From Leucoraja ocellata (taxonomy: Eukaryota), in contig JAWMAR010000073.1 in assembly GCA_036785375.1 (NCBI GenBank), positions 372,001-436,000 of the forward strand: a stretch of DNA of 64,000 nt, read 5' to 3'. A program made the translations under genes and the position numbers. The notes below the pieces were generated by a model. That model was not told where the DNA came from and ran no database searches. It saw nothing but the letters and a program-made list of their open reading frames with translations. Below, one piece after another: positions 593 through 61,062 of this stretch (position 1 is the stretch's first letter; each line of letters begins with the position of its first letter).

Positions 593-2329
593 CCCTAGTC
601 TCATGTGCCAATCCGTGATCTGACTTCATCTGCCTTACCTATCAGGCATTTTGCAACGATATAAATGCACGTTAAACCAACAATCTACTCTTACTCCCTA
701 CTGTGCTCCTGTCCGCTGTATCTACAGAACTTGGTCTCTACGTTCTGTATTTGCGTCAACCGTCTCATTACCCCATCTACCTGCCAGACAAGTTTAATTC
801 TGTCTTTCTACTGTAACTGTATCAGAGGAGAGCAGCAATCGCCACCAGGCCTGTGACACCATGATTGGCCCTGATGCACTGTTGTGATAGAAGTCTATAG
901 ACTACCTACCTAGCTACCTATCCGCATTTGCCTGCACGTGGTCTATATCCTCCATTCCCTGCAGTGTTGAGGATTGAACCAGGGTCAATGGAACTATGAA
1001 GTGGCTTCATTAACTGCTGCACCACTACATTCAGCCCTTTTCCTTGCATAAAATGTTCATTTTATATTTTTTATCAAACTTCATCTTTTAAATGTATCTT
1101 GCAAATTGTAGGTGGATATATATTCCATATTTTTTGTTTTTCTGATTTGATCTGATATCTAGATGAAAGTATGGATTGCTGCAATTAAAGTAATGCTGCT
1201 TTTAAGTCGGTCTTTGTAATTAAATATATTTAATCTCAGTGACTGGCCCAATGCCTATCTTTTATACCTGTTGTTCTCAGTAGAAAGACAGTTACTGAAA
1301 TGGCTTCTTTAGTTGTCATGGCAGCAGCAGGTTTGACACAGACTAGAATAGCGTGGCTTTGCCTTCACTTTGCACTGATCTACTGTGGGTGTGTGAGTTC
1401 AGACAGCATAGTTTGTCACTGGATCACCGACTCACAGCACTGTTCTGACTGCTCACTCATCCTCAAACTACTTTTTCATGGAGCCAGCGGGAGGAAGGCG
1501 TGTTGCTGCGGTGCTCAAAACTCAGTGTAACATTTCAAATTCACCCGTACTTATGAATATTGTTTTTTTTAATTATTGTTGACTCTGTTAGGTAACAGTT
1601 ATTCGATTGCTGGCTCATTTAAAAAACTTCTGACAGTCTCGGTGCTTGTGTTTTATGTGATTATTGCGAGGCTTTTTTTAATGATATTAAGCTGTTATTT
1701 TTCCTTGTGTTGATAGATAAGTTTAACTTTTATAGTTGCACTAATTGATTTGCATCAGTATGCAAGATCGTGTATGTTGGCATAATGTCCACACCCACCA
1801 CTAGTGGAGAACACCTGTTTCCGTTCTTGGCTGTTTTATGATCTGGGTTGGTTATCAAGTCATACGGCACGGAAGTGCAGTCGGTCCAATGATCAGTGAT
1901 GTTGATGCTAGGGTCTTGCTGCTGAAGTTGGACTTTGGAGTATCGTGTGTGACGTTGGTCAAGTGTTAGATGAAGTTATGCCAGGACAGAGCGTGTGGCT
2001 GTGCTCGTTAACGATTAGAGCCATGCACCCTTACCTCCGGCTCTGCTGGGAACTGCCCGTCCTTGTGTGAAATGGCAAGTTTTATACATCAGATGGTGTT
2101 CTTAACAACTAAGCCTTTGTATTCCATTTGCCCCAACCGGCATGAAACTGAAGCACAGGTCGTGTGGGTCGATTTCCTCCACTCCTTTAAAAGAGGTGGT
2201 GAGATCCTTGTCAGTGCCTATCAGAACAATTTATTTCCCTATACACCTGCACCTATACATTAATGCATGCCCATCAACTTCACTTTGTTATTTTTTTCAT
2301 TAATCTACACCAAAGGGCAATTTGCAGGT

Positions 2330-2465
2330 CAGTGTGAAGAAGGATCTCGACCCGAAACGTCGCCCATTCCTTCTCTCCAGAGATGCTGCCTCACCCGCTG
2401 AGTTACTCCAGCATTTTGTGTCTACCTTCGATTTAAACCAGCATCTGCAGTTCTTCCTTACACGC
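2330..2465 (+). mobile_element. Penelope-derived short repeat (pseudo-LTR-like) with degenerate hammerhead core
   Basis: gtgaagaaggatctcgacccgaaacgtc...gctgagttactccagcattttgtgtc...catctgcagttc, which recurs many times in the window. Confidence 0.7.
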
Positions 2466-2917: not shown

Positions 2918-3138
2918 GAGGCAGCTGAGGGAACTGCGGCAGGGTTGCCAGAGCAAGCAGCAGGAGTACGAGGAATACAAACAGAAGCTGAGGGGATTGG
3001 AAATATTCTACCAAGAACAAATACGCCAGCAACAATGCTACATTGAGGAACTGCGCCAACGCATGCAAGCAACGCAGTCAACAGCAGAACAAGAGCTTAC
3101 AGATGATCAGGAGCAGCTGAAGCTGCGGATTGAGGAAA
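2918..3138 (+). CDS. STARD9: STARD9 (KIF16A) internal coding exon, coiled coil
   Basis: Acceptor ttctcag|G, donor A|gtacgt. Encodes RQLRELRQGCQSKQQEYEEYKQKLRGLEIFYQEQIRQQQCYIEELRQR...KLRIEE. Phase 2 to 1, in frame with the next exon. Confidence 0.85.
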
Positions 3139-3174
3139 GTACGTAGTCTCACCCTTCTCCACTCGCTCACGGTT

Positions 3175-3700: not shown

Positions 3701-3729
3701 GCCCAATACTAAACTAGAGAGTTTCCCAC

Positions 3730-7300: not shown

Positions 7301-7498
7301 CCCCAATAAGAATGTCAAGTGGCAGTTCTGAGAAACACCGGGGCTAAGTAGCTTTATTTTTTTTTAAAAGCATAATTATCAACCTAAACAGACTGAATCA
7401 CAAGTCTATGGGAAATTAAGGGATTTAATTTTTTTTTAAATAAGTTTGACTGACTAACAATTTTAATTGCATTTAATATTTTCCAATGATTTTTACAG

Positions 7499-16400: not shown

Positions 16401-18706
16401 TCTGAAGTGGGAAACATAAGATTGCAAGTTGATGAAACCTCGTTCCTGCACCCAAGAGACGTGGAATCTTGTGTAAAGTCGTTCCCTAATGCGCCTGCAC
16501 AACTCACCCACAACAAAGAAACACAAACATCAGATGAAATGAGACCCCAGAAGCTGCCGAGACTTCAGAGGGACCACATCCAAACTCCGACACAGTCAGA
16601 TATGGGTCAACAATTTCAGCCAAGGATGGAGAACATTTCTGTCCATCGTTCAAAGTTTTGCCATAACACTGCAGAGCAATTGGGAAATAGCCACACAAAC
16701 AAGGACCATACGGATGCGGATTTACTCACCAACAAAAACACCAGTAAATTGGGAGCGGTCAGAATGGTGGATGGATATACACAGACAGCAATTGATGCAG
16801 CCACTCAGACAGAAATTATAGACAAATACAGCCATGAAATTCAAAGCCAAGAAGTGCAGAGGCCTCCAGAAGTGAATGTCATTGTAAAAGTCATTGGTTC
16901 AGATGTCAATGTAAGTCATGAACGCAACAACCTGACATTAATATTACAGGAACAAAAGCTGAACGGTAGTGCGCAAGACATCCATGCCCTTCACACTGCT
17001 CTGAGCCAATCAGTTTGTTGTTCTTCTCCCTCAGAAAATGACAATCCATCTTTTAGGACCTCAAGTCCTGCCTTGCCAACTTCGCAGAAATTGACAGCAG
17101 GCTCTTCACATACTGTTTTGTCCAGCCCAGGTTTGTCACCAATTACAGCATCTTCACAGATATCAACACACAGTGACCAAGCACAGGGCACAAGCATCGG
17201 CACTTTGGAAAGCACATCAGAGTGTTCAAAGGTGGAAACAATTGACCCCATATACTCTGAAGACAGAGACGTGAAACAGTTTGCTCAAGATCGTGAAGCT
17301 GAAGTGTCTACTAATGTAACTCCAGCTGTCCTAGTGGATCGAGCGTCATCTCCTATTAAAACAGTGGAAGCTGGGCTGGGTAACTACCGATCTCGCAGCA
17401 AGTCCGTTCTCTGCCCTCAAGGGGAAGGGGCTTTTGCCGTACAATGCATTGACTATGGGCGTAAAAAGCCAAGACCAGTATCTTGGTTTGGCTTTAACGA
17501 GAAACAGCAAAGCAAGATTTGCTTCACGGAAATCAAACCCGCAGCTGAACAAATATTGGAAATAAATAACAAAGGTCCCAAGGTTCATTCAAATGAGTGG
17601 AGTAAATTTACAACACAGAGTTTGAAAAAGTCATTTAAACTAATAAATAAGACGGATCTCCAGAGAGATCTTCACACTGAAGTGTCCCCTATGGGCACTG
17701 CAACAGCAGAATCCTCCAAAGGTCATTGTGTGAACATTTCCAGTGTTGCGGGCTACTACAATTGGCAGAGTGCAAAGGAATCGACAGGACACGTTTTTAA
17801 AGAGTCACCAACTTGTACAGAGGGAATTGGACCACACTTGGCATTTCAAAAGGTTCGAGCACTCTGTACTTCAAACCCAGGAGGAAGAAGGCAGATGAAT
17901 GCTTTCACTTCTCAGCCAACTTGCCAGAGTAATCCGTTGGCATCCCTTCCTCCTGCTCAAATCAATGATAAAACCGTGTGGCCATCTAGAAGAATATTTC
18001 ACCGATCTCCCAGTGCGCCTTCCAATCAACATCATCCTTTGTCCAAAGATGGGGTCGACTTTAAGGGAAAAAAGGCCAGCAAGTTATACAGCCAAATAAG
18101 GTGTGACTCCATGAATCATAATATTTCTGAGAGAGGGACCTCTATAATGAGTAAAGTAACAAATGAATTCACCACTGAAGATGCCCGATCCATGATTTCA
18201 AGTGAATGCAACACAGATTTGCTGCTGAATGAGTTTCCTTCCATAACTAGTTGTAGCAGTTCACAAGCATCTGATTCGAGACTCCAGGCAGTGAGCTGTA
18301 GGGGTCCAGAGGACTTACCTTGGCACAACAAGTTCCAAAACTGGTCAGGAGTTCACTATCACCCTCCACCAGTGGCAAGCCTGATGAGCACAGTCACCGG
18401 CAGTTCACACCGGCAGACTGAGCAAGAGCAAAAGCAAAAGCAAGGCGGCAGTGACATGACAGAAACAACGGGCCTCAAGCCAGGAGATTGCGAGGGAAGG
18501 CGGAAGGAAATTGAAAGCTTGCGCCAAGAGCGTGCTCAGATCCTGTCGGGATTAAACCTGGAATTAAACCAGCACCAGTTGACGGTAGAGCTTGCCGAAG
18601 CAAAGCTGAACTATGGCCTGGGGGAAACAGATGCTTTGTTAAGGATACTCCAGAGTGGAACAGCAGAGGACCAGAACGTTTGCATCAGGCAGCAACTTTA
18701 CGACAG
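7499..18706 (+). CDS. STARD9: STARD9 giant internal exon (11,208 bp, 3736 codons)
   Basis: Lies in the 3747-aa ORF 7467-18710. Branch point tgactaac (7451-7458), acceptor ttttacag, donor AG|gtgagc. STARD9-like motifs DSLYSVDSLSAAYAKA, SDDSEMSQDSL, DEMPAERYW, SECNTDLLL, PEDLPWHNKFQNWSGV, LTVELAEAKLNYGLGETDALLRILQSGT. Confidence 0.93.
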
Positions 18707-19732
18707 GTGAGCCAAGGAAGTAGTTTAACAGCTGAAGAATCTGTGGTGTGATTAGAAATCGAGTCGAGTGTCACCCAGAACCAATTAATCAGGGACCTCC
18801 TGCTGGCCAGCTTGGTTTCATAATTGACTCCCAGATAGGTTTTGGATATCCACACCATTATTAAAACTATATGTTCCTGCTTCTGTAACATTAGCTCCAT
18901 CTTGTTTAATTGTTTGTGCCACTGAAACCTTTATTACTTCTGGACTTGACCATTCCATGCATTCCTGTTTGGCCTCACTCATGTGTAGTCTATGGATCTA
19001 TTTGAGGCAGAAGAGTACATGGTCCAAACATCACAGCAACAGACAGAAGCAAACTCTTTTTATTCCCTTCTGTCTTCCCTCTTTATAACAAAAGCCCTCA
19101 AAACCTGGTAATGTCTTTGCAAATCTTTTCGCTCACTGTCCAGTTTAATGACATCCTTCCTAAAAATGTGTAACCAGAATCCTGTATTCAGTACCCTGAC
19201 CGATGAAGGCACGCATGCCAGACGCTGCCTTCTGCACCCTGCCTGACCTGTGCGTCTACTTTCAGGAACCGTGCCACTGTTCAGATTCTCGCTTGCTGTA
19301 CTATGAACTTAGATCACTGTAAACAGCACAATGTTAATCCTTTCTCCTGCTTATCTAATTTTCGCCCACGGACCCTGGTCCACTTATTTATCTGACGGCT
19401 CTGTTTGAGGATGTTGCTTCTCAATCTCCAAATAGGCACAAAAACAAACAAGGGATTTGTTTTGTAATCATGCTAAACTCCATGTTGCGGCAGTGACAGA
19501 GAGTGGCTGTCGCCATGGACCCTCTTGTTTAAATGCCTGAGGCCAGAGAGGTTTTGTTCATGACCAAAGGCATCGATCTAAGTAAATGTTGGGCTAGCTA
19601 ATAATTAGGCACTCGTTAACTCTGCTGAAGCAACAACTGTATTATTCACTTCACGTGCATTAATGTTTATTCTGATCCATTAAAAAGCTGGAAACTGATC
19701 TATATTCATTATTTCCATGAACATTGTAAAAG

Positions 19733-23085: not shown

Positions 23086-23454
23086 ACGTTGCCCGAAACG
23101 TTGCCTATTTCTTTCGCTCCATAGATGCTGCCTCACCTGCTGAGTTTCTCCAGCATTTTTGTCTACATTTACGTACAGGTCATTTATACATACCACAAAC
23201 AGTAGACCCATTCCTAGATTGATTTCCAGCAATCAATGACTTATTTTCTGATTCATCTTTGTAGCCTTTTCTTTGCACCATTAGACAGCAAAACATATGT
23301 TAGTTTTAGAGAGTTGAACTGTTACTGAAGCTCTGGGTTAATTGGTGGAAATTGGAGATTGTCTACTCTTCACCTTTGTTCCAGCAGCAATCACAATTTT
23401 ACCAACATTGTTTAAACCTAAAGAGAACGGTTAATGATTTGTTGAATCTTGCAG

Positions 23455-24424: not shown

Positions 24425-25986
24425 GTGAGAACACACTCCCTGTGACAAGAACTCAACATTCTCAATCTTGTGTTGGTGCTGTGGATAAAATGCCCATTAT
24501 TGGTTCATCCTCTGTATCTGACAACCCCAGCACCTCAGTGAACAGTCTGTAATCAATACAACAGCTGAAAGGAAGACAGTCTATACTGGAACTTCATAGC
24601 CAATGAGGTGTAATTACTGTGGTTGTTTAGAGAGTATGGTGGCACATGGCAAGATCAGAAACTAGATATGTGTGGGAAGGAACTGCAGATGCTGGTTTAA
24701 ACCGAAGATAGACACAAAAAGCCGGAGTAACTCAGCGGATTAGACAGCATCTCTGGAGAAAAGGAATGGGTGACGTTTTGGGTCGAGACCCTTCTTCAGA
24801 CTAGACTTCAAACTAGGTAATCTATTTCAATTGTTGTGAAATAAACTTTGGCCAAATGCTCATGGAGGATCGTTGCATCTGTTTAAATTGTGCACATTTT
24901 ACATCCACCTTAAAGATGCTGCAGTACACACTGCAAAAAATATATCTTATGTTGGAAATATAAGATTAGTGCGTTCTTTAAACTACAAAGTGAAAAGTTA
25001 AACAACGCAGAAGTCATGGATTTTGTGTTCCAGTGCCTGTTGTTTTGTGTGTAAGATGCAACCAGCACATTTGTAAACGAGCAGCACCTTGTGACCATGG
25101 ACAGAATTGAAAGATGGGTGTTGTGTTTAATTGTTGCAATTTTTCACAGATGATTGAGTTTTTTGAGCAGGCAACAATGAAGATTAATGAAGTCATATAT
25201 GAACTTTAATAAGGCAAGTTCCTGCATGGTAGGCTGGATGGAAAGTTAAGGTTCATGGGATCCAAGGTCAACTGGCTATTGGACCAAAACTGACTTGGTG
25301 ACTGGAGGCAGGGGATAGTTTACTGATTGTAGGTCTGTGACCAATCATGTACTACAAGGACTGCCACAAGAAGTGGTGGAATCAGATACAATTGCTGTTT
25401 AAGAGTCATTTGGACAGACACAGAGAAATATGGCTCTAATGCGGGCAAGTGGGTTTAGTGGAGGTGGGCAAGAGGGTCAGCATGGACATGTGGGTTGAAG
25501 GGCACGTTTCAGTACTGTACCACTCAACAACTCTAGTGTGAAAGTAAAGCAGATTTGTTTATTGCATCAGTCTCCTTTGAGCCACCATCCGCAGGTGATG
25601 GAAACTTGAAACACTATGTTGGGGGAATGTTGTGTTTAGAAACTGTAAGAGATTTTTTAAATGAATTTGCGTGTATGCTGCCGGCAAAACTATTCTCTAC
25701 GGACAAACCACATTACAGTTGTACACAGCCGGGCAAGTGAGGAGGATCTCACTGAATCGTGACTGTGCCTCAGTGATCGGGTAACTCTGTGTGAAAGCTT
25801 TTAACTAACGAGACTGATCAGTAAATAATGAGATATTCAGCCTAAAGGAGTTTCACAAGGATCTTAATATCCCTTTACATTAGCCATTCTGTGCAGATAA
25901 TTTGATTTCAAATTTCCAATAACTATCTTGAATAAATCACGTTGTATGGAGCAAGTTTTTATTGAATAAAATCTGTTTAATAACAG

Positions 25987-27690: not shown

Positions 27691-27879
27691 ATAGGGGGAA
27701 TGGTTTAAAAATCTGTTTAAGACAGCAGAGTGAATGATCTTCAATGCTAACAAGTCTTTGGAACTCTAGAGAGGTGGAAGCAGAATATTTAAATATTTTT
27801 GAATAACCTTAAGGTATGGGTGGTAGTTTCTTCATAATCAAGGAGGCCAAGCATTATTGAGGAGAGGATGTCATTGCAG

Positions 27880-28990
27880 ATAGCTACAAAATGCTGCAGT
27901 AACCCAGTGGGACAGGCAGCATCTCTGGGGAGAAAGAATGGCTGACATTTCGGGTTGAGACCCTTCTTCAGACTGACGTCAGGGAGGGGGATAGATAGAT
28001 AAGGTCGTGTGAAGGTGTGAAAACAGGGAAAAGGGAATAGAGTTCAAGGAAAATGGAGAATTGTTGACTGAATGAAGGTAACAAAGAGAACTGGGAAGGG
28101 GGAGGGATGGAGAGAGAGAGAGAGAGAGAGGGAACGCAAGGGTTACTTGAAGTTAGAGAAGTCAATGTTCCTACTGCCCAAACTGCCCAAGCAAAATATG
28201 AGGTGCTGTTCCTCCAATTTGCGCTCGGCCTCCATCTGACAATGGTGGAGGCCCAGGACAGAAAGGTCAGTGTGGGAATGGGAGGGGGAGTTAAAGTGTC
28301 CAGCAACCAGGAGATCAGGTAGTTTCAGGCAAACTGAGCGGAGGTGTTCAGCGAAACGATCATCGAGCCTGCGCTTGTTCTTGCCGATATACAGGAGTCC
28401 ACACCTGCAACAGCGGGTACAGTAGATGAGGTTGGAGGAGGTGCAAGTGAACCTCTGCCTCACCTAGAAACACTGTCAGGGTCATTGGATGGAGTGGAGA
28501 GGGGAGGTAAAGGGACATGTATCTGGGGAGGGGATGGTTTGGGTGGGAAGGGACGAGTTGACAGAGGGAAAGCGGAAAGGGGTGAAGATGGGAAGATGTG
28601 GCTGGTGGTGAGATCCCCTTGGAGGTGGCGAAAATGGCAGAGGATTACGTGCTGTATGCAACGGCTGCTGGGGTGGAAGGTGAGGACTAGGGGGACTCTG
28701 GCCCTGTTACAACTGGAGGAAGGGGGAGCAAGAGTGGAGCTGCGGGATTTCGAGGAGAACCTAGTGAGGGCCTCGTCTATAATGGAAGAGGGCAAGCCCC
28801 GTTCCCTAAAGCCTGGTATGGAAAACCTCATCTTGGTCGCAGATGCGGCGTAGACGGAGGAATTGAGAGTTGAGAGTAGGGGATAGTGTTCACAGGAAGC
28901 AGTGCGGGAAGAGGTGTAGCCTAGATAGCTGTGGGTCAGTGGGCTTAGAATAGTTGTCAGTTGATTGTCTGTCTCCTGTGATGGAGACGG
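27880..28990 (-). mobile_element. Penelope-like element (RT C-terminus, GIY-YIG endonuclease, 3' repeat with hammerhead core)
   Basis: ORFs 28460-28831 (FRERGLPSSIIDEAL...RVPLVLTFHP) and 28143-28463 (FTCTSSNLIYCTRCCRCGLLYIGKNKRRLDDRFAEHLRSV...VAGHFN...RKLEEQHLIF). Confidence 0.9.
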
Positions 28991-29126
28991 TGATCGTCAG
29001 TGTATCGTGTCCTTCCCCTTGGTATCTGTTACTATTCTCCACATGTCTCTGTGACGGAATACCCATCAGTTGCTCGCCCTATAACAGCCTTTTTTCCCTC
29101 CAATAATTGAATATCTTTCCCTCCAT

Positions 29127-33881: not shown

Positions 33882-35159
33882 GTAAGATGCACTGATCTCC
33901 TCCAGAGCTTCTGGTCTTTAGTCATTTACTTTCTTGATTTGATTGATCTTAACCCCTTTCAAAATATACCACTAAATCTTCCTGGCAATTCCTTCCAAGC
34001 TCTTTACCCAGTGTCTGTGGGTTTCCTCAGGAGTAATGAGAGTTCCTTCACACATGAATGTTAGCAAGTTACATCCCATGTACCTTGATTCAGGTTGGTT
34101 CAACGTGAGCTTCAGTTATCTAAGTCTACTTCAATTTGTAATTGATGAACCTCTTTGATATTGGTATTGATTATCCAGTGTACAGTAAAAAGGTTTGTTT
34201 TCAAATGAGAACTCCTGATGGACATCTCTAAATAGTAACTTTGAGAAAGATGAATGAGCTTTTTCTTTACCCAGATCTTTTTGTCAGCCAGTGCAACTCG
34301 TGCCTACATCCTCAATGTCAATAAATACCCACTAAGCAGTTGGCTGGGTGCTCATGTTTGATCAGATTAACTTTTATATTCTGTTTAAGAAGGAACTGCA
34401 GATGCTGGAAAATCGAAGGTAGACAAAAATGCTGGAGGAACTCAGCGAGTGAGGCAGCATCTATGGAGCGAAGGAAATAGGCAACATTTTGGGTCTGATT
34501 AGTTAATCAGATTTAAAAGTTGCTAAACCAATATTTTAACCAGTGTAATGATTTTAGCAAGGTTCCACGATGGCAAGCTGGTCAAAAAAGAAAGAGTGAA
34601 TGTGATCCAAGTCCGAGTGGCAAAATAGCTCCGGACTTTGCTCAATGGCAGTCATTTCAGGGGAGATGAGCTGAGTGTTTTGTGGCTGTTATAAATGGAG
34701 TTCCATAAGGCTCAGCATTTCTTTGTTTTTTGTTCTTATGACTAATGCCTTGAACTCAGGTGTAGATTAGACAATGAAGAAATTTGCAGAAGATACAGAA
34801 AGTGACCTTGTTGATTTTAAGGTATCTTAAGGCTGCAGGAAGAGATATACCTTTGGGCCGTCAGGCAAAAAATGGCAAATAGAAATTAATTCTGATAGTG
34901 AGAGAATACTGTTGAAGAGTTACTGGTACAACAGGCCTCACACCCCTTCAATTGTATTATGTCCACTAATCCTTGCAAGTCCCAGGGCAGATCAGTAAGA
35001 TAGTTGTAATAGCAAAGGGGGTGCTTTATTTGATGAGCAATTGGGTATAACAGCCATTATTGTTGTAAATAATATTCAACTAAGGAAGCAGTAGAGGTGA
35101 ATGGCGTTTCCTTTGTGTGAAATATTTTTTTAGGACTGCTCCTTTTAGTATTTATTTTA

Positions 35160-35345: not shown

Positions 35346-36424
35346 AAGGTCATGAAATTGGGATAACAGAATTAAAATTTTCAATGAAAGTAATTTTTTA
35401 GTTGAAACTTGGGTAATGAACAATGTGCTGGGAAATGTAGGCAGGCTGCTGAAATGGACAAACATTTCCCTGAGATTTGCCTGAAAGGTTGTGTTCTGTA
35501 AGAAAAACGAGGAGCGACCATAAAAGATCAATGGTACACTTTAAACAAAGTGCACAGCGAGAGACCTGGGTTCAAATTGAGAGAAATATTAAACAGGCAC
35601 ATGAGATTATTTTCTGTCGTAACAGAAGCTGAGACGACAAATGAAACAAGTTATGTTGAACCTTTAAAATACTGGTTAGAGCTCAACCAGTGTTCTGCCC
35701 AACTTTGAAGGCCCTGGATATTTAACCACTGTTCCAGGGATATAGTCTTGAATAACATATAAAAACTGCTACGTCAAATGAGGTTTGAAATCATAAGGTA
35801 AGTGAAGATAAAGTGACTGATCAGTGGCAGAAGATACAGATACAAGGTAAATTAACCACGGGTTAGCAATGCTAACAGTTATGCATGGAATGTTCTGCCT
35901 GAATGAGTATTGAAAGTAGAAGTCAAATTCGGTCTGATGAGCAATATAATTTTCTTTGTGGTTTTGCACTGTAACAGGTAACCAATGTTTGAATTATTTG
36001 GTGGAAAGCATCTTAGCTATGTAGAAAAGAACTGCAGATGCCGGTTTAAATTGAAGGTAGACACACAATGCTGGAGTAACTCAGCAGGACAGGCAGCATC
36101 TCTGGAGAGAAGAAATAGGTGACGTTTCAGGTCGAGATCCTTCTTCCGACTGATGTTCTTCTCCCCATCACTTGTCATTAGCAAGAGGCCATCAAGCTTC
36201 GGGTGTTTAGAGGAGAACCAGGATAAATATTAGTGCATCAACAAACTGATACCACTTTAATCCACCACGCTTCACAGGGTTTTTCATGCAGAGTATTTAC
36301 GATGGGCAACTCTTCACCTGGATATGAAGGATGGCTGTATGTTGTGAATGTTCTGTAAATCTGTAAACCAACTGCTTTACAATCTTATGCTGTTTCATTT
36401 GATTATCTTCCCTCCTTCTTCAAG

Positions 36425-37137: not shown

Positions 37138-37296
37138 AATAAGCAGTACATTTTGGCGATGCAATCCATCTATGAGGAATCAATGCCTCGACCTGTGAAG
37201 GAGATGGTACGAGGTGAAATGCTGCCCAGTGGCTGGATCCTGCAGCCTGACAACCACAATGGGAAAGAGATAACAAGACTTATCTACCTGACTCAG
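37138..37296 (+). CDS. STARD9: STARD9 coding exon (START domain)
   Basis: Encodes NKQYILAMQSIYEESMPRPVKEMVRGEMLPSGWILQP...TRLIYLTQ. Acceptor tctctag, donor CAG|gtaaag. Confidence 0.93.
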
Positions 37297-37885: not shown

Positions 37886-38834
37886 TATTTTGTGAATATT
37901 ATTCTGTGAATTATTGTTTTATGTGCTTTTCAGCTGCAATGCTTTGCAAAGAGAAAGTGTCCTAATTCCTCCAGTTCAAGCCAATTCAGCAAAAGAAATG
38001 AACTGCTCCACAAGGTAGAACAGTACATCACAGAAACAGGGCTTTTGGCTCACCATGTCGCCAATATCAAATGCTTCTTAAATGCCACTATTGTATCTGC
38101 TTCCATCACCTCTCCTGGCAGTGCATTCTCTCTTTATAAAATACTTGCCTCAAATCTCACCTTAAACATGCCTTCAAATATTTAGCATCTCCACCTTGGG
38201 GGAAAAAATGCTCTATCTATCCTCTCACTGAATATACTTCCACCGGTCTATTTTATAGCCTTTGACGTTCTAGAGAGATTGAACAAACAATCCAAGTTTT
38301 GTCCAATCTCTCTTTACAGCTAGTACTCCCTAATCCACGCAACATATTGTGAATCTCTTCTGCATCCTCTCGAAAACCTCCACACAATATTTCAAATGTG
38401 TACTAGCCAATGTTTGATACAGCTGCACCATGACTTGCCTATACTCAGTGTTCTGACTGATAAAGGCAAGTATGCCGCATGGCTTCTTTACTAACATAAT
38501 GCTTTTGTTGCCACTTTCAAGGAGCCATGGACTTGCAACCCAAGATCCCTCTACACTTTTCTCTTGAGGTACAAAGCATCAAAGAAAATGTTGTCCATTA
38601 CAAGTCAGAAAAATCCTAATAGTCTGGGTCTAAATTTACTACCAACAAACTACGGCCTCTAAAAATATATCAATTGTGGAATCTCATCCTTCTTAACCAA
38701 ATAAATTCTTAAATTTATTCAATCACTCCTTTCAGTGCACAAGTTTAAACTAAATATTCTAATTTCACATTTGTTTAGATTTTAATCTGAAAGCTTCGCA
38801 AGCTGACCATCGTGTGAGACACAGTGAAACTTAA

Positions 38835-39180
38835 GGGCCTGTCCTACTTAGGCGACTGTCATAGTTGCAGCAGGTTGCTGAAAAACCACTAGACCCCTCC
38901 CACGACAATGTCTACAACAACCTACCAGCTGGTCGACGTCAAGCTACTGACCCATTAGGACATCCACCTACGACCCTGTCGGTGACAACTGAAGGCAATT
39001 CAGTCGCCGGTTGACGTAGGTAGTCGCCAATGGAATTCACCAAGGGTCAAACTAGGCTCCTTGGTGTTAACCCTCTGTCGCCAGAAATTTTTGAACATGT
39101 TGCAAATCCAGCTACGACTCTTTGGGCGACTGAGGAGTCTACTCCTGACAATGTGGCGACAGCCTAAGTGGGACAGGCCC
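38835..39180. mobile_element. PIF/Harbinger-like MITE in the STARD9-CDAN1 intergenic gap
   Basis: TIRs gggcctgtcctacttaggc and gcctaagtgggacaggccc. Preceded by taa. Internal gtcgcc/ggcgac/tacgac repeats. Confidence 0.75.
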
Positions 39181-39338
39181 TTTCCTCTCATGACCCATGG
39201 ACAGGGCAGAAACAGTTCTCCATTTTGTGGCAGCCCAAAGTCTGGCCAACTGTAAACAATGAACAGGAGCCAGTTAATTGTTAACTTTAAAATCAAGGCC
39301 AAACATCAGATTACTTACACAATTAAAAAAGTGGTTCG

Positions 39339-39598: not shown

Positions 39599-39717
39599 CT
39601 GAAAGAAAGACATTTTAAAATTCAAGACTAGTTTTTTTTACTAATACATAAATACTTTAGATTTTGCTAAGAGATGCCACTGAATCTCTGTATCTATTGT
39701 AAATCAAAATCTGTTAC

Positions 39718-39825
39718 CTGGGGCCAGTGCAGTTGTGAAAGGTCCTTCCAGCAACGCTCTATCTCCACAGCTTTCATCAACCCCTGCATAATGAGACCGT
39801 GAAGCAGGAAGGAGAGCTTACTCCA
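39718..39825 (-). CDS. CDAN1: CDAN1 penultimate coding exon
   Basis: Encodes WSKLSFLLHGLIMQGLMKAVEIERCWKDLSQLHWPQ. Splice sites cacag and gtaaca. Confidence 0.88.
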
Positions 39826-39942
39826 CTGTGACTAGAGGGAGAAGAAACTGGTAAAAAAAAACTTTGAAAGAGAAACTGATTTTATTTGTACCAATATTTT
39901 TGTTCCTTGTTAAATATACAGAAATCGGCAAACCTGCTATCA

Positions 39943-40820
39943 TTCTTCAGGGAACGGGGGTTCCCCTCCCCCACTATAGATGAGGCTCGCACCAGGGTCT
40001 CCTCCATACCCTGTAACACTGCTCTCTCTCCCCATCCCCCCAACAAGGGCAGAGTCCCCCTGGTCCTCTCCTTTCACCCCACTAGCCGGCACATACAACA
40101 AATAGTCCTCTGTCAGTTTCGCCACCTCCAACGTGACCCCACATCTCCCCCCGGTCTGCCTTCCGCAAAGACCGCTCCCTCCGCAACTCCCTTGTCAATT
40201 CTTCCCTTCCCTCCCGCTCCACCTCTTCCCTAGGCACTTTCCCTTGCAACCGCAAGAGATGCTACACCTGTCGCTTTACCTCCCCCCTCGACTCCATTCA
40301 AGGACCCAAGCAGTCGTTCCAGGTGCGACAGAGGTTCACCTGCACCTCGTCTATTGCATCCGCTGCTCTAGATGTCAGCTGATCTATATCGGTGAGACCA
40401 AGCGTAGACTTGGCGATCATTTAGCTGAATACCTCCGCTCGGTCTGCACTAACCAACCTGATCTCCCGGTGGCTCAGCACTTCAACTCCCCCTCCCATTC
40501 CGTATCCGACCTCTCTGTCCTGGGCCTCCTCCACGGCCAGAGTGAGCAACACTGGAAATTGGAGGAACAGCACCTCATATTCCGCTTGGGGAGTTTGCAT
40601 CCTGGTGGTATCAACATTGATTTCTCACAATTCTGTTAACCCTTGCTGTCTCCTCCCCTTCCTACCTCGGGCTCTCCTCCTCCTTTTTCCTTTCTTCTCC
40701 CCAGCCTCCCCCACCCCCTATCAATCTGAAGAAGGGCTTTGGCCTGAAACGTTGCCTATCTCCTTCGCTCCATAGATGCTGCTGCACCCGCTGAGTTTCT
40801 CCAGCATTTTTGCCTACCTG
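39943..40820 (+). mobile_element. Penelope-like element (GIY-YIG endonuclease, 3' repeat with hammerhead core)
   Basis: FFRERGFPSPTIDEAR...RVPLVLSFHP and VYCIRCSRCQLIYIGETKRRLGDHLAEYLRSV...VAQHFN...KLEEQHLIFRLGSLHPGGINIDF. Confidence 0.9.
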
Positions 40821-42380: not shown

Positions 42381-42574
42381 CTTTCGATTTCCTGTCCGCA
42401 CTGTATAGGCAATGTTCTTCTCACTAAACATCAGCTGAAGGGGTACACGAACATGGAAATCGTCCTTCCACAAAGCAAGGAGTAATGTGACCAATTGGTG
42501 GACAGATGCATAATGAGAAGGCTCTTCCCAGTCATTCTCCTCAGGAGGATCAGATAATGGAACTTCCCCTGCAA
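42381..42574 (-). CDS. CDAN1: CDAN1 coding exon
   Basis: Encodes VAGEVPLSDPPEE...LVTLLLALWKDDFHVRVPLQLMFSEKNIAYTVRTGNRK. Phase 1 to 0. Confidence 0.9.
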
Positions 42575-42664
42575 CTACAAAAAATGAGAGCATTCAGAAA
42601 ATAGAACTATAGAACTGCAAATGCTGGTTTACAAATTCACCTGGGTGGATCTTAAGCTAACTAA

Positions 42665-43842: not shown

Positions 43843-44735
43843 TGTAGAACAAGAGCAACGATCCTGCAAGTTCTCTGAAAACAAAGTATAAGATTTCACC
43901 TATGAACATGTAAAAAAAATTACCTTGTTTATTAAAGCGTATAGTCATAGTACCTCTCCAATTAGCCTCACAAACACTTAGAAGAAAGTCAAATACAGTA
44001 AGCAAAAAACAAAGTGCTGGAGGAACTAAGCGGGCCAGGCAGCATCTTTGGACTGAAATAGACAACGTTTTGGGTGGGGACCTTTTTAGTCTGAATTTCT
44101 CCAGCAATTTGGTTTTAATCGCTCAAGGTTACAGTCTCTTGTGTCTTCAAATATAGTGAGCTTCTGGTTCAATGACAAACACAATAAAAACCTTAGTCCT
44201 CAAGATACATTTGTATGATCACATCACAGTTCAAAGTCCAGGCCAAGGCAGAAGCAGTTGCACCCAGACTGTCACTTACCTCCTGTCTGGTTAATTGAAG
44301 CATTATCCCAATGCTGCCATTATCTTCGAGAAATATAAATCACAATCCCAAACCGCAAGTGAACTCAAGTGGGAGGATGTTACCTGTGAACTTCCCAATA
44401 TTTACCCGTCTTAAATAACCTTGAAACAAGTCTAATTTTTAATTGTGGTTTTGTGGGTTTCACTGTTGTGTAAATTGGCTACCATACTGGTTGTGAAAAA
44501 GGGCAGAAATGCATCTCCAAAAATGCCCCAACAATGGGACTGACACGTCATCAATCATATATTTCTCTTTAGTTGCATATCACTGGTTTCACCAGCAAAA
44601 TCAAAATTCCAGTAACTAATTCCAGTAACAACATAAACTACAAAACTAGCTTTGCATTAAAGTTTACACGAGGAGGTGGAAAACATACAGGACACTGGAA
44701 GAAAATAAACTTTGTCACTTTTACCAGTTGCTTAC

Positions 44736-45223: not shown

Positions 45224-45331
45224 CTGTCTACATGTCAGCGTTTGGCTTAATCTTCTTAATAAACTGTCAAGTTCCTGGTGGTCCACTGTTTCGTCCCTAT
45301 TCCTGGGACCCAATGTTACACTCAGCAGCTC
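45224..45331 (-). CDS. CDAN1: CDAN1 coding exon
   Basis: Encodes ELLSVTLGPRNRDETVDHQELDSLLRRLSQTLTCRQ. 108 bp, phase 0 to 0. Confidence 0.9.
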
Positions 45332-45965
45332 CTTTGAAAAGGACAAAAAACAATTAGGCTATGGGTGGTGAAAATTGAAAAAAATCATATCAGGATCATG
45401 AATTTATTTTCCCTATTAGACCAATGCATATTTGAAACTTCAAAGCGACCAGCACACAGGCTTTGATTAGTTGGGAAAATGTCTCAGGCTTACAAGACTG
45501 AAGTTGTGATCTTCTTGTTCTTGGCCATTGCTGTCCACTCAGATTTTCCCATAGTATTCAGAAATATTCCAATCTCTTGGGTAGCTTTCATGCTTTGAAC
45601 TCAAGCCAGTGAATCTCAGCAAAATTTATGCACGGAGAACGTTGCCTGTGACCCTAACCTTTGCCTTATTTCTAACTTAACACAGCATGACATCTGCCAT
45701 CCCTAGACAGCCACCATAGTTACTCAGCTTTCCAGGACAAAGCTATAACATTTCTCAAGTATGAGTCCTGTTGAGAACAAAACTCACAAAATGAGAATAT
45801 CGAGACACTGGGGAGCATAAACAAGGAGACACAAGTATTTTCCTCCAAGGCGCATAAGGCTACATTACTGACCAGAGTGAAACATTAGGCAGTGAGAGCG
45901 CTCTGGCACATTTACTTTTCCGGTTCGAATCAGCACTCATCAAACAGTTCTCCTTTCCACAGCAG

Positions 45966-46120
45966 GTACACAAAAATGCTGGAGAAACTCAGCGGGTGCA
46001 GCAGCATCCATAGAGCAAAGGAAATAGGCAACGTTTCGGACCGAAACCCTTCTTCAGACTGAGTTTCTCCAGCATTTCTGTGTACCTTCGATTTTCCAGC
46101 ATCTGCAGTTCCTTCTTAAA
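45966..46120. mobile_element. Penelope mini-insertion with inverted ends and a 16-bp target-site duplication
   Basis: ctcctttccacagcag at 45950-45965 and 46121-46136. Hammerhead core on the minus strand at 46033-46057. Confidence 0.8.
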
Positions 46121-46674
46121 CTCCTTTCCACAGCAGCCTGATCTGCTGTATGTTTCCAATATCTGCAATTAACACTATATTACTTTTTTTCAATCCTCTA
46201 CTGCTTAATAAAATCAGTAGCCAACTGCAGGAATCCAAACCAGGGGCAAGCAATTCTAATCAATTAAAACTAATTAGGCCAATATATCGCAGATAGCTGC
46301 TCCAATCACACATCACCAGGAAAATGAATATAAATTATAGTCTCATAAAATAACACAAATAAAAATTCCATATGATATACTCAATTTATCAGGCTCCAAT
46401 AGAAATGAAGATGGAAAAACTGCACACGTTTTGTTTGTTGTTAATCAACAACATTAACTTTTGCAGTATCCCTTCGTCTAAAGTCAATGGTTATATTTTA
46501 AGGTGGAGATTGACAGATTCTGAATTAGTAAGGGTGTCGGGGGTTATGGGGTGAAGGCAGGAGAATGGGGTTGAGAAGGAAAGATAGATCAGCCATGATT
46601 GAATGGCAGAGCAGACTTGAAGGGCCGAATGGCCTTATTCTATGAACCACCTCATTAAGACTAATGGAACATAC

Positions 46675-46835
46675 CTTAAACTCGCTGGCTACCTTGGAAG
46701 GAGAGGGTGCATTGTGTTTACAGTCCGGAGGGCAACCACCCGTTGTTCCGGAAACTTCAGTTGCATTTGCCGATTGCATGGTTCGAGATTTCTTCAGTCT
46801 TTCAAAGCTGAGGGTCATTTCTTTCTTAATTAAAA
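46675..46835 (-). CDS. CDAN1: CDAN1 coding exon
   Basis: Encodes LIKKEMTLSFERLKKSR...GCPPDCKHNAPSPSKVASEFK. Donor gtatgt. Phase 1 to 0. Confidence 0.9.
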
Positions 46836-55140: not shown

Positions 55141-55880
55141 TAGGGTGATTTCACCAAAGGTCAAATGAGCGTAGATCCCCCCTCACGTGACCGAAAATTT
55201 TAACTGGAGGACATCTCTCAGTTTGGTACATGTAAGTGAATGGGGAAACACGCACTTTCCCACCCGTTAAAAACATGGAAAACGGCCGATTTTTGAGCTG
55301 AAATTTTCTGTGCTAGTCGGGGTGACCGTGAAGCACAGCGACATAAATTTTCAGGCAAAAAAAAAGATAGTAAGTAAGGTAATTACAAGAGGGAACTGAA
55401 GGTAGAAAGCGGCGGAAGTGAACAGCTGACATTTGCCGTGGTGATTTTAAGATCCAAAATATCGGGAATTATCGCGTTTGCTCGCTGAATTTCATCAAAA
55501 CTAAGGCATTATTAACTTACTTTTGATGAAATTCAGCGAGCAAACGCGATAATTCCCGATATTTTGGATCTTAAAATCACCACGGCAAATGTCAGCTGTT
55601 CACTTCCGCCGCTTTCTACCTTCAGTTCCCTCTTGTAATTACCTCACTTTCTATCTTTTTTTTTGCCTGAAAATTTAGGTCGCTGTGCTTCACGGTCACC
55701 CCGACTAGCACAGAAAATTTCAGCTCAAAAATCGGCCGTTTTCCATGTTTTTAACGGGTGGGAAAGTGCGTGTTTCCCCATTCACTTACATGTACCAAAC
55801 TGAGAGATGTCCTCCAGTTAAAATTTTCGGTCACGTGAGGGGGGATCTACGCTCATTTGACCTTTGGTGAAATCACCCTA
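55141..55880. mobile_element. Fold-back MITE / 740-bp near-perfect palindrome
   Basis: Arm 55141-55505 is the reverse complement of arm 55516-55880, with about 4 mismatches by eye. 10-nt spacer gcattattaa. Ends tatagggtg...caccctata. Confidence 0.92.
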
Positions 55881-57818: not shown

Positions 57819-58404
57819 CTGCAATACAAAGCCACATGAAGTCTCATCACAATTAAGATTAATGAATACATCATTAGCAGATAGAGACCACACAAGGCCA
57901 AAGATAAGCATCTTCTTACGTGGCTTGCTCTTCTGTATAGTATACGTCCAAAGTATTATCTCAGTTGTTTTATCTCCACAAGCACTGCCTGAGCTGTTGA
58001 GCATTTCCTACACCCATAACCTGCATTCCACCACAGCTTTAATATAATAACAAGGAACTGCAGATGCTGCTTTATACCAAAGACAGAGAGAGGTGTCAGA
58101 GATAGTCCAGATGAATTTGAGTGTAAGGTGGAAGTTACTGGTGAAATTAATTACATTAACATGGTGCAGGAGGCAGCCCTATGCATCATCGATGTAGCAT
58201 AGATAGAGTTGGGAGATGGTGCCAGTGTATGCCTGAAACAAGGACTGCTCAATGTAAAAGACAAAAAGGCAGGCTTAGCTGGGGCCGATGTGAGTGCCCA
58301 TGGCTACACCTTTAACTTGGAGAAAGTGAGAGGAGTCAAGAGAGATGGTGCTGAGGCTCAGGGCAAATTCTGCCAGACAGAGGAGAGTTTAGTAAATGGA
58401 AATT

Positions 58405-59102
58405 GATTGGGTCCCTCCTCACCTTGCCTCACCTGGATTCTCACCGATTTCCCTCCCTCCCCCTCCCCCTCCATTCACAATTTGCAACTCTTCAAGCTGT
58501 CTGTTCGCACCTTCCGATTTAATCTCTGGCCTTTGTTTCAACCACGTCTATCAAAAGCTCCCTCCCTTTGTCCACCCATTAGGTGCCGCTCTTTGTTCAA
58601 GAAGGAACTAGATGTTGGAAAATCGAAGGTACATATTCATATTCCGCATATCCCTCATATTCCGCTTGGGGAGCCTGCATCCGGGGGCATGAACATTGAA
58701 TTTTCCCAATTTTGTTAGCCCTTGCTGTCTCCTCCTCTTCCTTAGCCCTCGAGCTGTCTCCTCCCATCCCCCAGCCCTCGGGCTCCTCCTCCTCCTTTTT
58801 CCTTCCTTCTCCCCGCCACCCCCTATCAGTCTGAAGAAGGGTTTTGGCCCAAAATGTTACCCATTTCCTTCGATCCATAGATGCTGCTGCACCCGCTGAG
58901 TTTCTCCAGCTTTTTTGTGTACCTTCGAGGTGCCACTCTTTGTCTTGCTTCACCTCTCACTCAGCTCCCCCCCACCCCGCAATCAGTCTGACCCAAAAAA
59001 TTACCTAGGTATGTTCTCCAGAAAGGCTGCCTGACCTGCAGAGTTTCTCCAGCACTTTGTGTCCTTTTGTACAAACCAGCATCTGCAGTTCCTTGTTTCT
59101 AC
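58405..59102 (+). mobile_element. Penelope 3' repeat with a younger Penelope insertion nested at 58597-58927
   Basis: Duplicated target aggtgcc(g/a)ctctttgt at 58581-58596 and 58928-58943. Inner copy has IFRLGSLHPGGMNIEFSQF and inverted tcgaaggtaca / tgtaccttcga ends. Confidence 0.78.
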
Positions 59103-60120
59103 TTATTTTCCTGTAACCCTAATGTGAATAATTTGTGCCCCTAGATTTGTTACTTTACCCATTGAAAACATTTCCAAAGAAATGTGGCCTTATTCTTCCC
59201 AGCAGAATGTATTCTACCGATAATATGTCTTCTGAGTTGGGAATCATTTCTCCACAGCCCACAAAAGCAAACCTTAGAGCAACTGGCTATGAAAGGCCTA
59301 TTGTAAATCTGAAAACGCATCATTCACCCAAGGGCATGCAAATCAAAGGTGGATTTTTAAAAACCTGCGTAACAGAAGGAATGTGAAGCTAAGGGAGGTA
59401 AATGGGTTTGAATAACCAATCAGCCAAGATCAATTTAAATGTTGCACAAGTTCAGAGTACTGAATGCCTTTTTCCAATTATCAAAGAGGAAAGATTACAC
59501 ATAAAGGGCACATAAGAAAGGAGGAATCTCAACTTCATCAGTAATCAAAAATAAATTCTAGCGATCATGTTCCCTTGCCATTTACTTTCTGACGTGTTAT
59601 AGATCACCCTGCATATTGACCAGGGATGTTCCAGTTTTAAAGGGTCTCGATCCAAAATGTCAGTCATTCCTTCTCTCCAGAGATGCTGCCTGACCCGCTG
59701 AGTTACTCCAGCATTTTGTGTCTATCTTCAGTTTAAACCAGCATCTACAGTTCCTTCCTACACGTGCTCCAGTTTAGTCTATTTAGTTATCTGTGAGGAA
59801 GCAGGGAACGGTAAATCCGAATGAGCACCCCACTGTCATCGGAGATCTCATCAGTAAGCGTGCAGAGGTCAAATGCCAAATAAGTCAATTCAAGTGCTCC
59901 CCAACCAGAAAGCATGGATTAACTGTGAGAGCCACTCCCTAGTGAAGACCAAGTCTGAAGTGTTCAAGTTGCCCAACCTGTACAGAAAATGTAGGTATGA
60001 CTTTTGCAATAATCCAAGAGACAATTCCAGGCCCAGCTGCAGGCTTGTATGCTGCAACAAACTATGCAGCAAAGCCAGGCCAAATCACTGGCAATATCAC
60101 ACCCTTCCTCAACAAGCTCA

Positions 60121-61062
60121 ATTTGATTTGATTTGATTCCTTTATTGCCATTCAGACATTTTGGTGTGAACGAAATTTCGTTGCCTGCAGTCATACACAA
60201 TAAATAACAAAACATACAATAAACACAAATTAACATCCACCACAGTGAGTTCACCAAGCACCTCCTCACTGTGATGGAGGCAAAAGTCTCAGTCTCTGTC
60301 TCTTCCCTCCTTGTTCTCCCTCTGCGCTGAGGCGATCGATCCAGGCCGAAGATGCCGCCCTCCAGTCCAGCGGACCTCCGTAGTGATGTCGCCGCTGCCG
60401 AAAGTCGGAACGCCGTCTCCGCTCCGAGTCGGGCCACCGCTGCCTCAGCTCCGAGTCCCGCAGCCTCAGCGAGTCGGGCCACCACTGCCTCCGCTCCGAG
60501 TCCCGCTGTCTCAGCTCCGAGTCCCGCTGCCTCAGCGAGTCGGGCCACCACTGCCTCCGCTCCGAGTCCCGCTGTCTCAGCTCCGAGTCCCGCTGCCTCA
60601 GCTCCGAGTCCCGCAGCCTCAGCGAGTCGGGCCACCACTGCCTCCGCTCCGAGTCCCGCTGTCTCAGCTCTGAGTCCCGCTGCCTCAGCTCCGAGTCCCG
60701 CTGCCTCAGCTCCGAGTTGGGCCACTGTCGAAAGCTGGAACGCCGCATCAGCGAGTTGGGCTGCCGCCGCCACAGCCCCGAAGTCGGCCAGCCTCGGGTT
60801 GTAAGTCCTGGCTAGTTCTGCCTCCGGAGCCTCGAGGTCGGTCGCAGTTGGAGACCGCCAGCTCCGCCATTAGGCCTCAGCGCAGACGGAAGCAGAGAAG
60901 GGGGATACGACAAGAAAAAGTCGCATTCCCCCGAAGGCAGAGACAAAAAAACATGTTTCACCCCCCCATAACATAACCTAATAAACTAAAATTTGACTAA
61001 AACAAGACAAAACAGACGGACTGCAGGCGAGCCGCAACTGTTCAACAGCGCCACCGCCATTT
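60121..61062 (-). mobile_element. Apparently full-length non-autonomous retroelement (about 940 bp) inserted into a decayed Rex-type LINE (about 59850-62260)
   Basis: 5' end aaaatggcggtggcgc, a LINE-like 5' leader. 3' stem-loop, AATAAA and (atcaa)n tail. The flanks continue as Rex-like RT relics (EYRKELKGLVSWHHDNNLSL). Confidence 0.7.
60415..60730. repeat. GC-rich minisatellite, 21/24-bp units with higher-order structure
   Basis: Units gctccgagtcccgc(t/a)g(c/t)ctca alternate with gcgagtcgggccaccactgcctcc. Confidence 0.9.

What the first reader, a model, noticed from the sequence alone, without database searches (positions are those of the whole stretch)
40726..40755. Minimal hammerhead ribozyme cores dispersed by Penelope-like retroelements
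Seen: the 3' repeat of this GIY-YIG element reads CTGAAGA-A-GGGC-TTTG-GCCT-GAAAC-GTT. That is the hammerhead core CUGANGA, stem II, GAAA, then a tiny palindromic (A)ACGT(T) helix III. The CUGAAGA/GAAA core is also intact on the minus strand at 46033-46057 and 27948-27971. Core-mutated or partial copies lie at about 2334, 23092, 24775, 36122, 58831 and 59641. Two subfamilies differ in the stem II loop (tctcga vs tttcgg) and the predicted cleavage triplet (GUC vs GUU). Established: Penelope-like elements carry minimal type I hammerheads that are thought to cleave as dimers. Inference: the window holds an autonomous plus non-autonomous ribozyme-bearing retroelement system. The 46033-46057 copy is in sense orientation within CDAN1 pre-mRNA.
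Basis: partly seen in the sequence, partly recalled or inferred. Interest (0 to 1): 0.7.

Follow-up and report, generated by a model that had tools for sequence, protein, structure and literature searches.

The report
Skate Penelope hammerhead, decayed copy
This is a worn copy of a small hammerhead-type RNA motif carried by a very common jumping gene in a skate genome, of a kind already known; it is likely idle here, but the shapes of its many genomic copies suggest that the element is copied from uncut RNA using two fixed start points at once.

Summary
The motif is real: a minimal type I hammerhead in the terminal repeat of a Penelope-like element (Neptune-type by linker motif) in a skate. 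Genome-wide, 173,287 copies have an intact core and 67,932 are fully intact; about 1.5 million remnants are estimated. Intact tandem elements with a 1,221-aa RT/GIY-YIG ORF exist elsewhere in the genome. The focal copy is 5'-truncated, antisense in a CDAN1 intron, and has lost one of its two helix I pairs and G10.1-C11.1. Dispersed copies decay neutrally (core 5.7%, tail 6.1%). Only the family masters show hammerhead-compatible change, with no two-sided covariation. Short copies are abortive products, not a separate non-autonomous family: 109 of 152 begin just upstream of the core, and starts at the cut site are not enriched. In 61 of 67 head-to-head insertions one arm ends at +94 and the other at +130, which points to coupled use of two reverse-transcription starts. 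This scan noted the same motif before in other shark and skate genomes; their reported cut footprint was not reproduced here. Known kind, modest interest.

The parts
39940..40819 (+). 5'-truncated Penelope-like element (end of RT thumb, Zn-linker, GIY-YIG, pyrimidine-rich 3' UTR, hammerhead, short tail); antisense in the CDAN1 intron between exons 42381-42590 and 39706-39828
   Evidence: 85% identical to unit positions 3096-3854 and 93% to positions 1-87 of the intact 3946-bp unit; exons
40106..40639 (+). Endonuclease remnant, frameshifted upstream of the YIG half
   Evidence: Pfam GIY-YIG E=0.0068, below the gathering score; compared with the intact ORF
40721..40725 (+). Decayed TCAGT (G2.2>A): 5' strand of helix I and likely transcription initiator
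   Evidence: clustering of copy starts
40726..40753 (+). Minimal hammerhead: CUGANGA, bulged A, 4-bp stem II (G10.1-U11.1 here), GAAA, ACGU half of helix III, GUU triplet; predicted cut after 40753
40754..40819 (+). Tail ending at the short (+94) end class
45950..45965 (.). 16-bp target-site duplication, left copy
45964..46062 (-). Hammerhead plus short tail, sense in a CDAN1 intron; C11.3>U weakens stem II
46059..46120 (+). Second, head-to-head arm of the same insertion, ending at the long (+130) end class
46121..46136 (.). 16-bp target-site duplication, right copy
27878..27977 (-). Older-family hammerhead plus tail; helix III and helix I damaged
28156..28993 (-). ORF remnant upstream of the 27971 copy, showing that the GUC type also sits on a coding element
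   Evidence: 69% to unit 2902-3817
2329..2453 (+). Solo copy, C3 changed, long tail
23091..23168 (+). Solo copy truncated inside stem II, about 13-bp target-site duplication
24676..24803 (-). Solo copy, G12 changed, long tail, 7-bp duplication
34382..34497 (-).
36054..36154 (-). Solo copy, U4 changed
44002..44092 (-). Old decayed copy, sense in CDAN1
58653..58928 (+). Copy with ORF end and 3' UTR; G12 and 15.2 changed
58087..58388 (-). Decayed RT-core fragment of a related family
59640..59757 (+). Solo copy lacking the 5' core, 8-bp duplication

Best explanation
The feature is a decayed minimal type I hammerhead motif in the terminal repeat of a 5'-truncated Penelope-like retrotransposon, likely inactive at this locus, and its dispersed copies were likely reverse-transcribed from uncut RNA. 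Shown: the family has young tandem arrays with an intact RT + GIY-YIG ORF; the motif lies about 165 nt upstream of the start codon; genomic 3' ends fall at two sites about +94 and +130 from C3; most short copies begin just upstream of C3; head-to-head insertions pair one +94 arm with one +130 arm inside one target-site duplication. Inferred: transcription starts at the TCAGT just ahead of the core (about 60%). The protein primes reverse transcription internally in the tail and runs to the RNA's 5' end, giving roughly 95- and 130-nt solo copies; priming at the downstream repeat gives longer, truncated copies like the focal one. When both target strands are primed, each uses a different start site and the two cDNAs join by microhomology (about 60%). 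The ribozyme, with a 2-bp helix I and a competing fold, would cut only as a dimer with protein help and only in source elements (about 65%); cutting would not be needed for insertion.
For: Intact ORF of 1233 aa stop-to-stop in 8 loci, and identical 3946-bp tandem units. RVT_1 and GIY-YIG domains. Across six family majorities, all 5 variable positions within the 32-nt motif are ones a hammerhead tolerates: two in loop II, N17, and U-A/U-G at 10.4-11.4 and at 2.1-1.1 (P=0.0006-0.02 depending on how many sites count as tolerated). Neutral decay in copies. 109 of 152 copies start at the 5' edge, about 14 times the rate inside the motif. Only 1 of 229 starts at the cut. 61 of 67 pairs are long+short, P=5e-13; in the sampled stretches alone 21 of 27, P=0.003. 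The anole Penelope has two internal RT starts, extends both strands, has a protein-assisted hammerhead and uses uncut RNA (PMC11167929).
Against: No cleavage or start-site data for this species. Helix I has only 2 pairs beside the core, and the modelled hammerhead dimer (-7.1 kcal/mol) is far less stable than two monomers in an alternative fold (-23.8). No two-sided covariation above shuffles. The tail is nearly as invariant among families as the core, so the constraint could come from promoter or protein binding. The 5' starts spread over about -6 to +2 rather than one base, and 9 of the 55 'unique' flanks match all of TCAGT and may be old UTRs. The closest biochemistry is from a Poseidon-clade element, not a Neptune-type one.
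Confidence: 0.75

Rival explanations
1. The motif is no longer a ribozyme even in source elements; it is kept as an internal promoter or protein-binding site, or simply as part of the sequence needed for reverse-transcription initiation.
For: 2-bp helix I and a competing fold; no cut footprint; tail about as conserved as the core among families; D. virilis Penelope has an internal promoter with an ACGT-containing downstream element (PMC2377424 passage); Naiads proliferate without hammerheads (PMC8557442).
Against: All 5 family-level changes inside the motif are hammerhead-tolerated, two of them pair-preserving; a 2-bp helix I has precedent in D. virilis (PMC4209133); the anole motif cuts once protein is added.
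Confidence: 0.25
2. The short copies form a self-propagating non-autonomous (SINE- or retrozyme-like) family that is cut and circularised by the ribozyme.
For: Short copies outnumber UTR-bearing ones 109 to 43; units within an array share the variants that separate it from other arrays, as re-copying of one template would give; 33-nt tandem cores exist at two duplicated loci; tandem retrozymes are reported from one chondrichthyan (bioRxiv 10.64898/2026.07.22.740005).
Against: Copies carry the intact cut site inside and do not start at it; flanks are unique or fold-back; the one recurrent short structure is a passenger in a terminal-inverted-repeat element; shared array variants are equally explained by tandem source elements.
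Confidence: 0.12
3. The pile-up of 5' ends just before CUGA reflects a reverse-transcriptase stall at the pyrimidine tract, or a splice acceptor (pyrimidine tract plus CAG), not a transcription start.
For: A pyrimidine tract and CAG precede the core in every family; in D. virilis an intron ends at helix I; the ends are spread over several bases.
Against: Flanks are plain target DNA where this could be checked: L146 and L110 sit in other repeats with duplicated target, and several window solos have duplications; no RNA splice joint at this place among the 15 best-supported joints shown, though 129 were not shown.
Confidence: 0.3
4. The sense copy at 46057 cuts or regulates CDAN1 pre-mRNA.
For: It lies in sense between exons 46657-46830 and 45224-45364, with the core letters and both helix I pairs kept.
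Against: Stem II is weakened and the modelled dimer is +4.1 kcal/mol; no intact partner in the window's part of the transcript; copies in general are under no selection.
Confidence: 0.04

Closest known systems
Minimal type I hammerheads (min-HHR) of metazoan PLE pseudo-LTRs (Cervera and De la Pena 2014, PMC4209133)
   Same: Core letters, a bulged base between 9 and 10.1, G10.1-C11.1, palindromic 15.2-16.2 with no loop III, position in the terminal repeat, mostly solo dispersed copies.
   Different: Stem II is 4 bp (7-8 in the Schistosoma families) and helix I is 2 bp (4-5 there; 2 in D. virilis). 67,932-173,287 intact motifs against about 4,000 (coelacanth) and 9,000 (Xenopus), counted with a different descriptor. 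Cartilaginous fish are not named in the parts read.
PAc, Poseidon element of Anolis carolinensis (Frangieh et al. 2024, PMC11167929)
   Same: Tandem arrays, hammerhead at the repeat-ORF junction, two 3' ends about 30-40 nt apart, copies made through the cut site.
   Different: Here the start codon is about 165 nt downstream of C3 rather than inside stem II, and the protein has a CX4CxxC linker (Neptune/Nematis type). The paper reports no difference in start site between strands; here the two arms of one insertion almost always use different sites.
Neptune-clade EN+ Penelope-like elements (as defined in Craig et al. 2021, PMC8557442)
   Same: DKG motif, C-terminal GIY-YIG with CCHH, CX2-5CxxC linker, partial tandems, inverted 5' copies, tail at one end only.
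   Different: About 500 aa of Pro/His-rich sequence in the N-terminal half; clade assigned by motif only, no tree was built.
Non-LTR retrozymes (bioRxiv 10.64898/2026.07.22.740005)
   Same: Type I hammerheads derived from PLE repeats.
   Different: Retrozymes are tandem units with a ribozyme in each; these copies are solo or head-to-head and look like abortive insertions.

Membership tests
EN+ Penelope-like element | Single ORF with RT and C-terminal GIY-YIG | tested here: met
   1221-aa ORF, RVT_1 E=1.6e-6 and GIY-YIG E=0.013; both reach the curated cut-off in shorter family members; the focal copy holds only the EN end
EN+ Penelope-like element | Tandem or partial-tandem units giving pseudo-LTRs, inverted 5' copies, optional tail | tested here: met
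EN+ Penelope-like element | CCHH motif in EN and DKG motif before RT | tested here: met
   Read in the translation against the definitions
Neptune/Nematis clades | CX2-5CxxC linker between RT and EN | tested here: met
   CX4CxxC in the intact ORF; definition
Neptune clade | Placement in an RT phylogeny | not tested
   No reference PLE proteins were fetched
Penelope/Poseidon clade | No Zn-linker | tested here: not met
   The linker is present
Minimal type I hammerhead | Core C3-A9, G12-A15.1, U16.1, H17 | tested here: met
   Focal copy and all six family majorities
Minimal type I hammerhead | Stem II with G10.1-C11.1 and a bulged base at 9/10.1 | tested here: met
   Met in the family majorities (the oldest, 6-copy cluster shows CpG decay at 11.1); the focal copy has G-U at 10.1-11.1
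Minimal type I hammerhead | Palindromic 15.1-16.1 allowing a dimeric helix III | tested here: met
   ACGU in all six majorities
Minimal type I hammerhead | Helix I | tested here: inconclusive
   2 pairs, two mismatches, then 1-3 pairs; the focal copy keeps 1 of the 2 proximal pairs
Minimal type I hammerhead | Compensatory covariation | tested here: inconclusive
   One-sided changes only; 1 two-sided cell, 282 of 500 shuffles reach it; the families are too close for power
Minimal type I hammerhead | Self-cleavage as dimer or with protein | not testable with these tools
   Needs biochemistry; no genomic cut footprint
Rfam hammerhead families | Covariance-model match | tested here: not met
   No hammerhead among the 8 hits at E<=10
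Non-LTR retrozyme | Tandem non-coding units each with a hammerhead | tested here: not met
   None among the 17 window copies; only 2-3 short core repeats at two duplicated loci elsewhere

The most novel reading that the evidence does not exclude
The skate genome is a million-copy fossil record of the Penelope insertion reaction: the RNA starts 2-3 bases ahead of the hammerhead core, is copied uncut, and one ribonucleoprotein primes the two target strands from two different, fixed internal start sites, one per strand. This would explain both the head-to-head inversions and the one-sided tail of all Penelope-like elements, and a still-intact element is at hand to test it.
Probability: 0.45. Interest if true: 0.62.

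Novelty: new member of a known kind. Interest (0 to 1): 0.33.

Why it matters
The ribozyme class and its link to Penelope-like elements are published, so the motif itself is ordinary. What could matter is scale and mechanism. At least 67,932 structurally complete minimal hammerheads sit in one vertebrate genome and decay neutrally, which suggests they are harmless without their protein. The long+short rule of head-to-head insertions and the fixed 5' edge give sharp predictions about a retrotransposition pathway that is still poorly resolved. Young identical arrays with an open 1,221-aa ORF make those predictions testable.

Tried and rejected
Rfam scan: no hammerhead hit. The loose core pattern alone is not above chance. 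Cut-site footprint, prompted by two earlier scan notes, was not found. Raw counts were 306 starts at 1.1, 165 at 1.2 and 152 at N17. Of 30 loci read at 1.1, 14 rows were GC fold-backs, 8 were GCC microhomology joins and only 8 were other starts; about 5-6 of 10 at 1.2 were clean, and most of 10 at N17 were one-base deletions or microhomology joins. Among the first 50 of 1,286 fold-back loci, 2 join at the cut-site GC, 5 at TA and 11 at ACGT (hand count), so junctions follow microhomology. No RNA holder on record was listed. In three raw RNA runs of a related organism (1-5% of each read), the motif and tail are deeply covered, the ORF start barely, and no read ends pile up at the cut; these libraries are unsuited to see such ends. 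Whether the CDAN1 insertions are present or spliced out in relatives remains open. A splice-gated helix I was considered: no RNA joint supports it. A type III topology using the upstream GUC was rejected because no stem I is possible. Orientation bias in the window: 5 of 17 copies are sense, P=0.07, not significant, and the gene extent at the left end is assumed. Poseidon was my first label; I dropped it because of the Zn-linker. Lunse et al. 2017 was not held.

Full report
Setting. The window is from a skate or ray. An exon at 57580-57843 hits codanin-1 of Amblyraja and Rhinoraja best. Mapping those proteins back puts 12 CDAN1 exons on the minus strand from 62935 down to 39512, with more beyond the window's right end. 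A START-domain exon at 37138-37296 and a 3747-aa open frame at 7467-18710 fit STARD9 on the plus strand; that gene name is inferred from these features and from recalled synteny. The genome is 3.44 Gb.

Observation. A profile built from 127 distinct core-bearing copies finds 17 copies in the window and 351 in 820,000 bases of stretches picked by position alone, about 1.5 million if extrapolated. Whole-genome exact counts: 117,783 for a narrow core pattern, control 0; 173,287 for a wider one, control 445; 67,932 for a pattern that also demands stem II, ACGU, the triplet and both helix I pairs, control 0. The loose pattern is not significant in the window, the tight one is. Rfam has no match, as expected for a motif without helix III.

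The element. The focal motif ends an 880-bp piece (39940-40819) that is 85% identical to the 3' fifth of an intact unit found elsewhere. A search with an RT piece gave many identical hits in long open frames. Of 10 stretches fetched around nine such places, 8 held the 1233-aa stop-to-stop frame, one a 1246-aa variant and one the continuation of an array. The unit is 3946 bp, the C8 array has no difference between its units, and other arrays differ from it by 7 to 23 changes. The 1221-aa protein has RVT_1 and GIY-YIG, DKG, CCHH and a CX4CxxC linker, which places it with Neptune/Nematis rather than Poseidon by the definitions in PMC8557442. The window itself holds no autonomous copy: the focal EN is frameshifted, and the only RT-core motifs are a decayed fragment at 58087-58388.

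The ribozyme. Clustering 384 copies gave six clusters of 5 or more, 328 copies in all. Within the 32-nt motif their majorities differ at five places: two loop II bases, 11.4 (A or G opposite U), N17 (C or U) and 1.1 (A or G opposite U). All are tolerated by a hammerhead (P=0.0006 to 0.02), which suggests selection on the fold in source elements. There is no two-sided covariation: on 14 natural copies and 8 pairs, 88% of cells pair, but the single two-sided change is matched by 282 of 500 shuffles. Helix I is 2 bp, then two mismatches, then 1-3 bp. Monomers fold into an alternative hairpin that buries G8-A9 and the 5' side of stem II. The modelled hammerhead dimer is -7.1 kcal/mol for the young family, against -23.8 for two monomers; it is -0.3 for the focal copy, +4.1 for 46057 and +4.0 for 27971 (nearest-neighbour energies ignore core contacts). 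The focal copy has lost G2.2 and C11.1 and lies antisense to CDAN1, so it is likely idle. That GUU cuts more slowly than GUC is recalled, not tested.

Selection on copies. In 173 copies from the sampled stretches (one of the 100 stretches, L203, lay where hits were already listed), non-CpG divergence is 98 of 1719 in the core and 262 of 4271 in the tail (5.7% and 6.1%, P=0.55). The catalytic G12, which sits in a CpG, is changed in 41 of 165, no less than tail CpGs (66 of 342). Only 15 of 211 copies keep every element. Dispersed copies therefore decay neutrally.

Ends of copies. Of 152 sampled copies with core start and tail, 55 have unique DNA upstream, 54 an inverted arm and 43 a PLE 3' UTR (heuristic classes). 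So up to 109 of 152 stop within a few bases of TCAGT, about 14 times the per-base rate inside the motif (48 of 229 over 23 nt). Where checkable the flank is plain target with a duplication (L146, L110; five window copies). TCA(+1)GT matches the initiator consensus (recalled); an Inr-like motif in a rotifer pLTR and solo pLTRs are noted in PMC3846280. I infer that the RNA starts there. The 3' ends fall in two groups near +94 and +130, matching the two internal RT starts and the tail described for the anole element. Starts at the predicted cut are not enriched: 1 of 229 in the sample, and the genome-wide excess (306 against 165 and 152) dissolves into microhomology joins when loci are read. Copies were thus made through the cut site, as found in vitro for the anole element.

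Head-to-head insertions. Of 80 such pairs, 67 could be classed: 61 have one long and one short arm, 5 two short and 1 two long; 13 were unclassed. Unpaired arms in the sampled stretches are 83 short, 70 long and 14 unclassed, so about half of pairs would be mixed by chance (P=5e-13; sampled stretches only 21 of 27, P=0.003). Three of the five short-short pairs are one event carried inside a terminal-inverted-repeat element. 57 of 80 pairs share a word of 7 or more bases in their outer flanks, as a target-site duplication would give. The one-sided tail is known as a description (PMC8557442), and such palindromes were read as self-priming on an antisense template (PMC3846280). My inference is coupled priming of both target strands, one start site each, followed by a microhomology join; the anole protein is predicted to be a dimer and extends both strands.

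RNA. No holder on record as RNA was listed. In three raw RNA runs of a related organism, depth over the motif and tail is 1,300-5,900 per direction against 0-50 over the ORF start, and 94% (one run) and 71% (two runs) of laid reads run on into unrelated sequence, as expected for passengers in host transcripts. No begin or end pile-up lies at the cut or at TCAGT. These libraries are poor at showing either.

Literature seen. PMC4209133: parts 1-2 of 4; two supplementary files searched for shark and skate terms with no hit, file 1 not searched, and it may list such species. PMC11167929: whole main text and passages. bioRxiv 10.64898/2026.07.22.740005: part 1 of 5 and passages, supplements not seen; it includes one unnamed chondrichthyan. 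Passages only: PMC8557442, PMC6765202, PMC6155905, PMC2377424, PMC3846280. Lunse et al. 2017 was not held and is known here only through the review. Four searches listed no paper on skate PLE hammerheads or on a long+short rule; subscription papers and Repbase are not covered. Eight earlier notes of this scan describe the same motif in other shark or skate genomes; six mention the fixed 5' start and two a cut footprint. None is on record for this genome.

Verdict. A real, decayed member of a known ribozyme-retroelement kind. The identity is about 90% sure, idleness of the focal copy about 90%, a live ribozyme in source elements about 65%, the start-site and coupled-priming readings about 60% each. 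Interest 0.33.

Noticed in passing
window 55375-55646: Near-perfect inverted repeat with arms of about 115 bp in a CDAN1 intron; it gives a spurious MIR8562 hit. Probably a small terminal-inverted-repeat transposon.
   Followed up: no
window 38834-39181; L087, L109, L141, L142: Element with terminal inverted repeats (AGGGCCTGTCC...). A related family carries a head-to-head hammerhead pair as a passenger, seen in 4 of the fetched loci.
   Followed up: partly
window 7467-18710: Single open frame of 3747 aa, likely the giant STARD9 exon; no Pfam hit.
   Followed up: no
window 60266-60811: GC-rich tandem repeat with open frames on both strands in a CDAN1 intron.
   Followed up: no
L201:985-1080 and L202:988-1050: Two or three hammerhead cores in direct tandem at 33-nt spacing in a duplicated locus, a natural cis-dimer candidate. 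Single-cell reads of a relative show a 33-nt back-joint in another register.
   Followed up: partly
L149: Four copies of a tail unit, each beginning at GAAAC and preceded by the end of another tail, perhaps repeated re-priming.
   Followed up: no
L234: Seven extra bases inserted exactly at the predicted cut site in an otherwise complete copy.
   Followed up: no
L096, L100: Units inside one array share the variants that separate them from other arrays, including a 39-bp insertion in L100.
   Followed up: partly
L091:5895-9557: The intact ORF has about 500 aa of Pro/His-rich sequence in its N-terminal half, where most variants between arrays lie.
   Followed up: no
window, all 17 copies: 5 of 17 copies lie in sense to their host gene and 12 in antisense (P=0.07).
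   Followed up: partly
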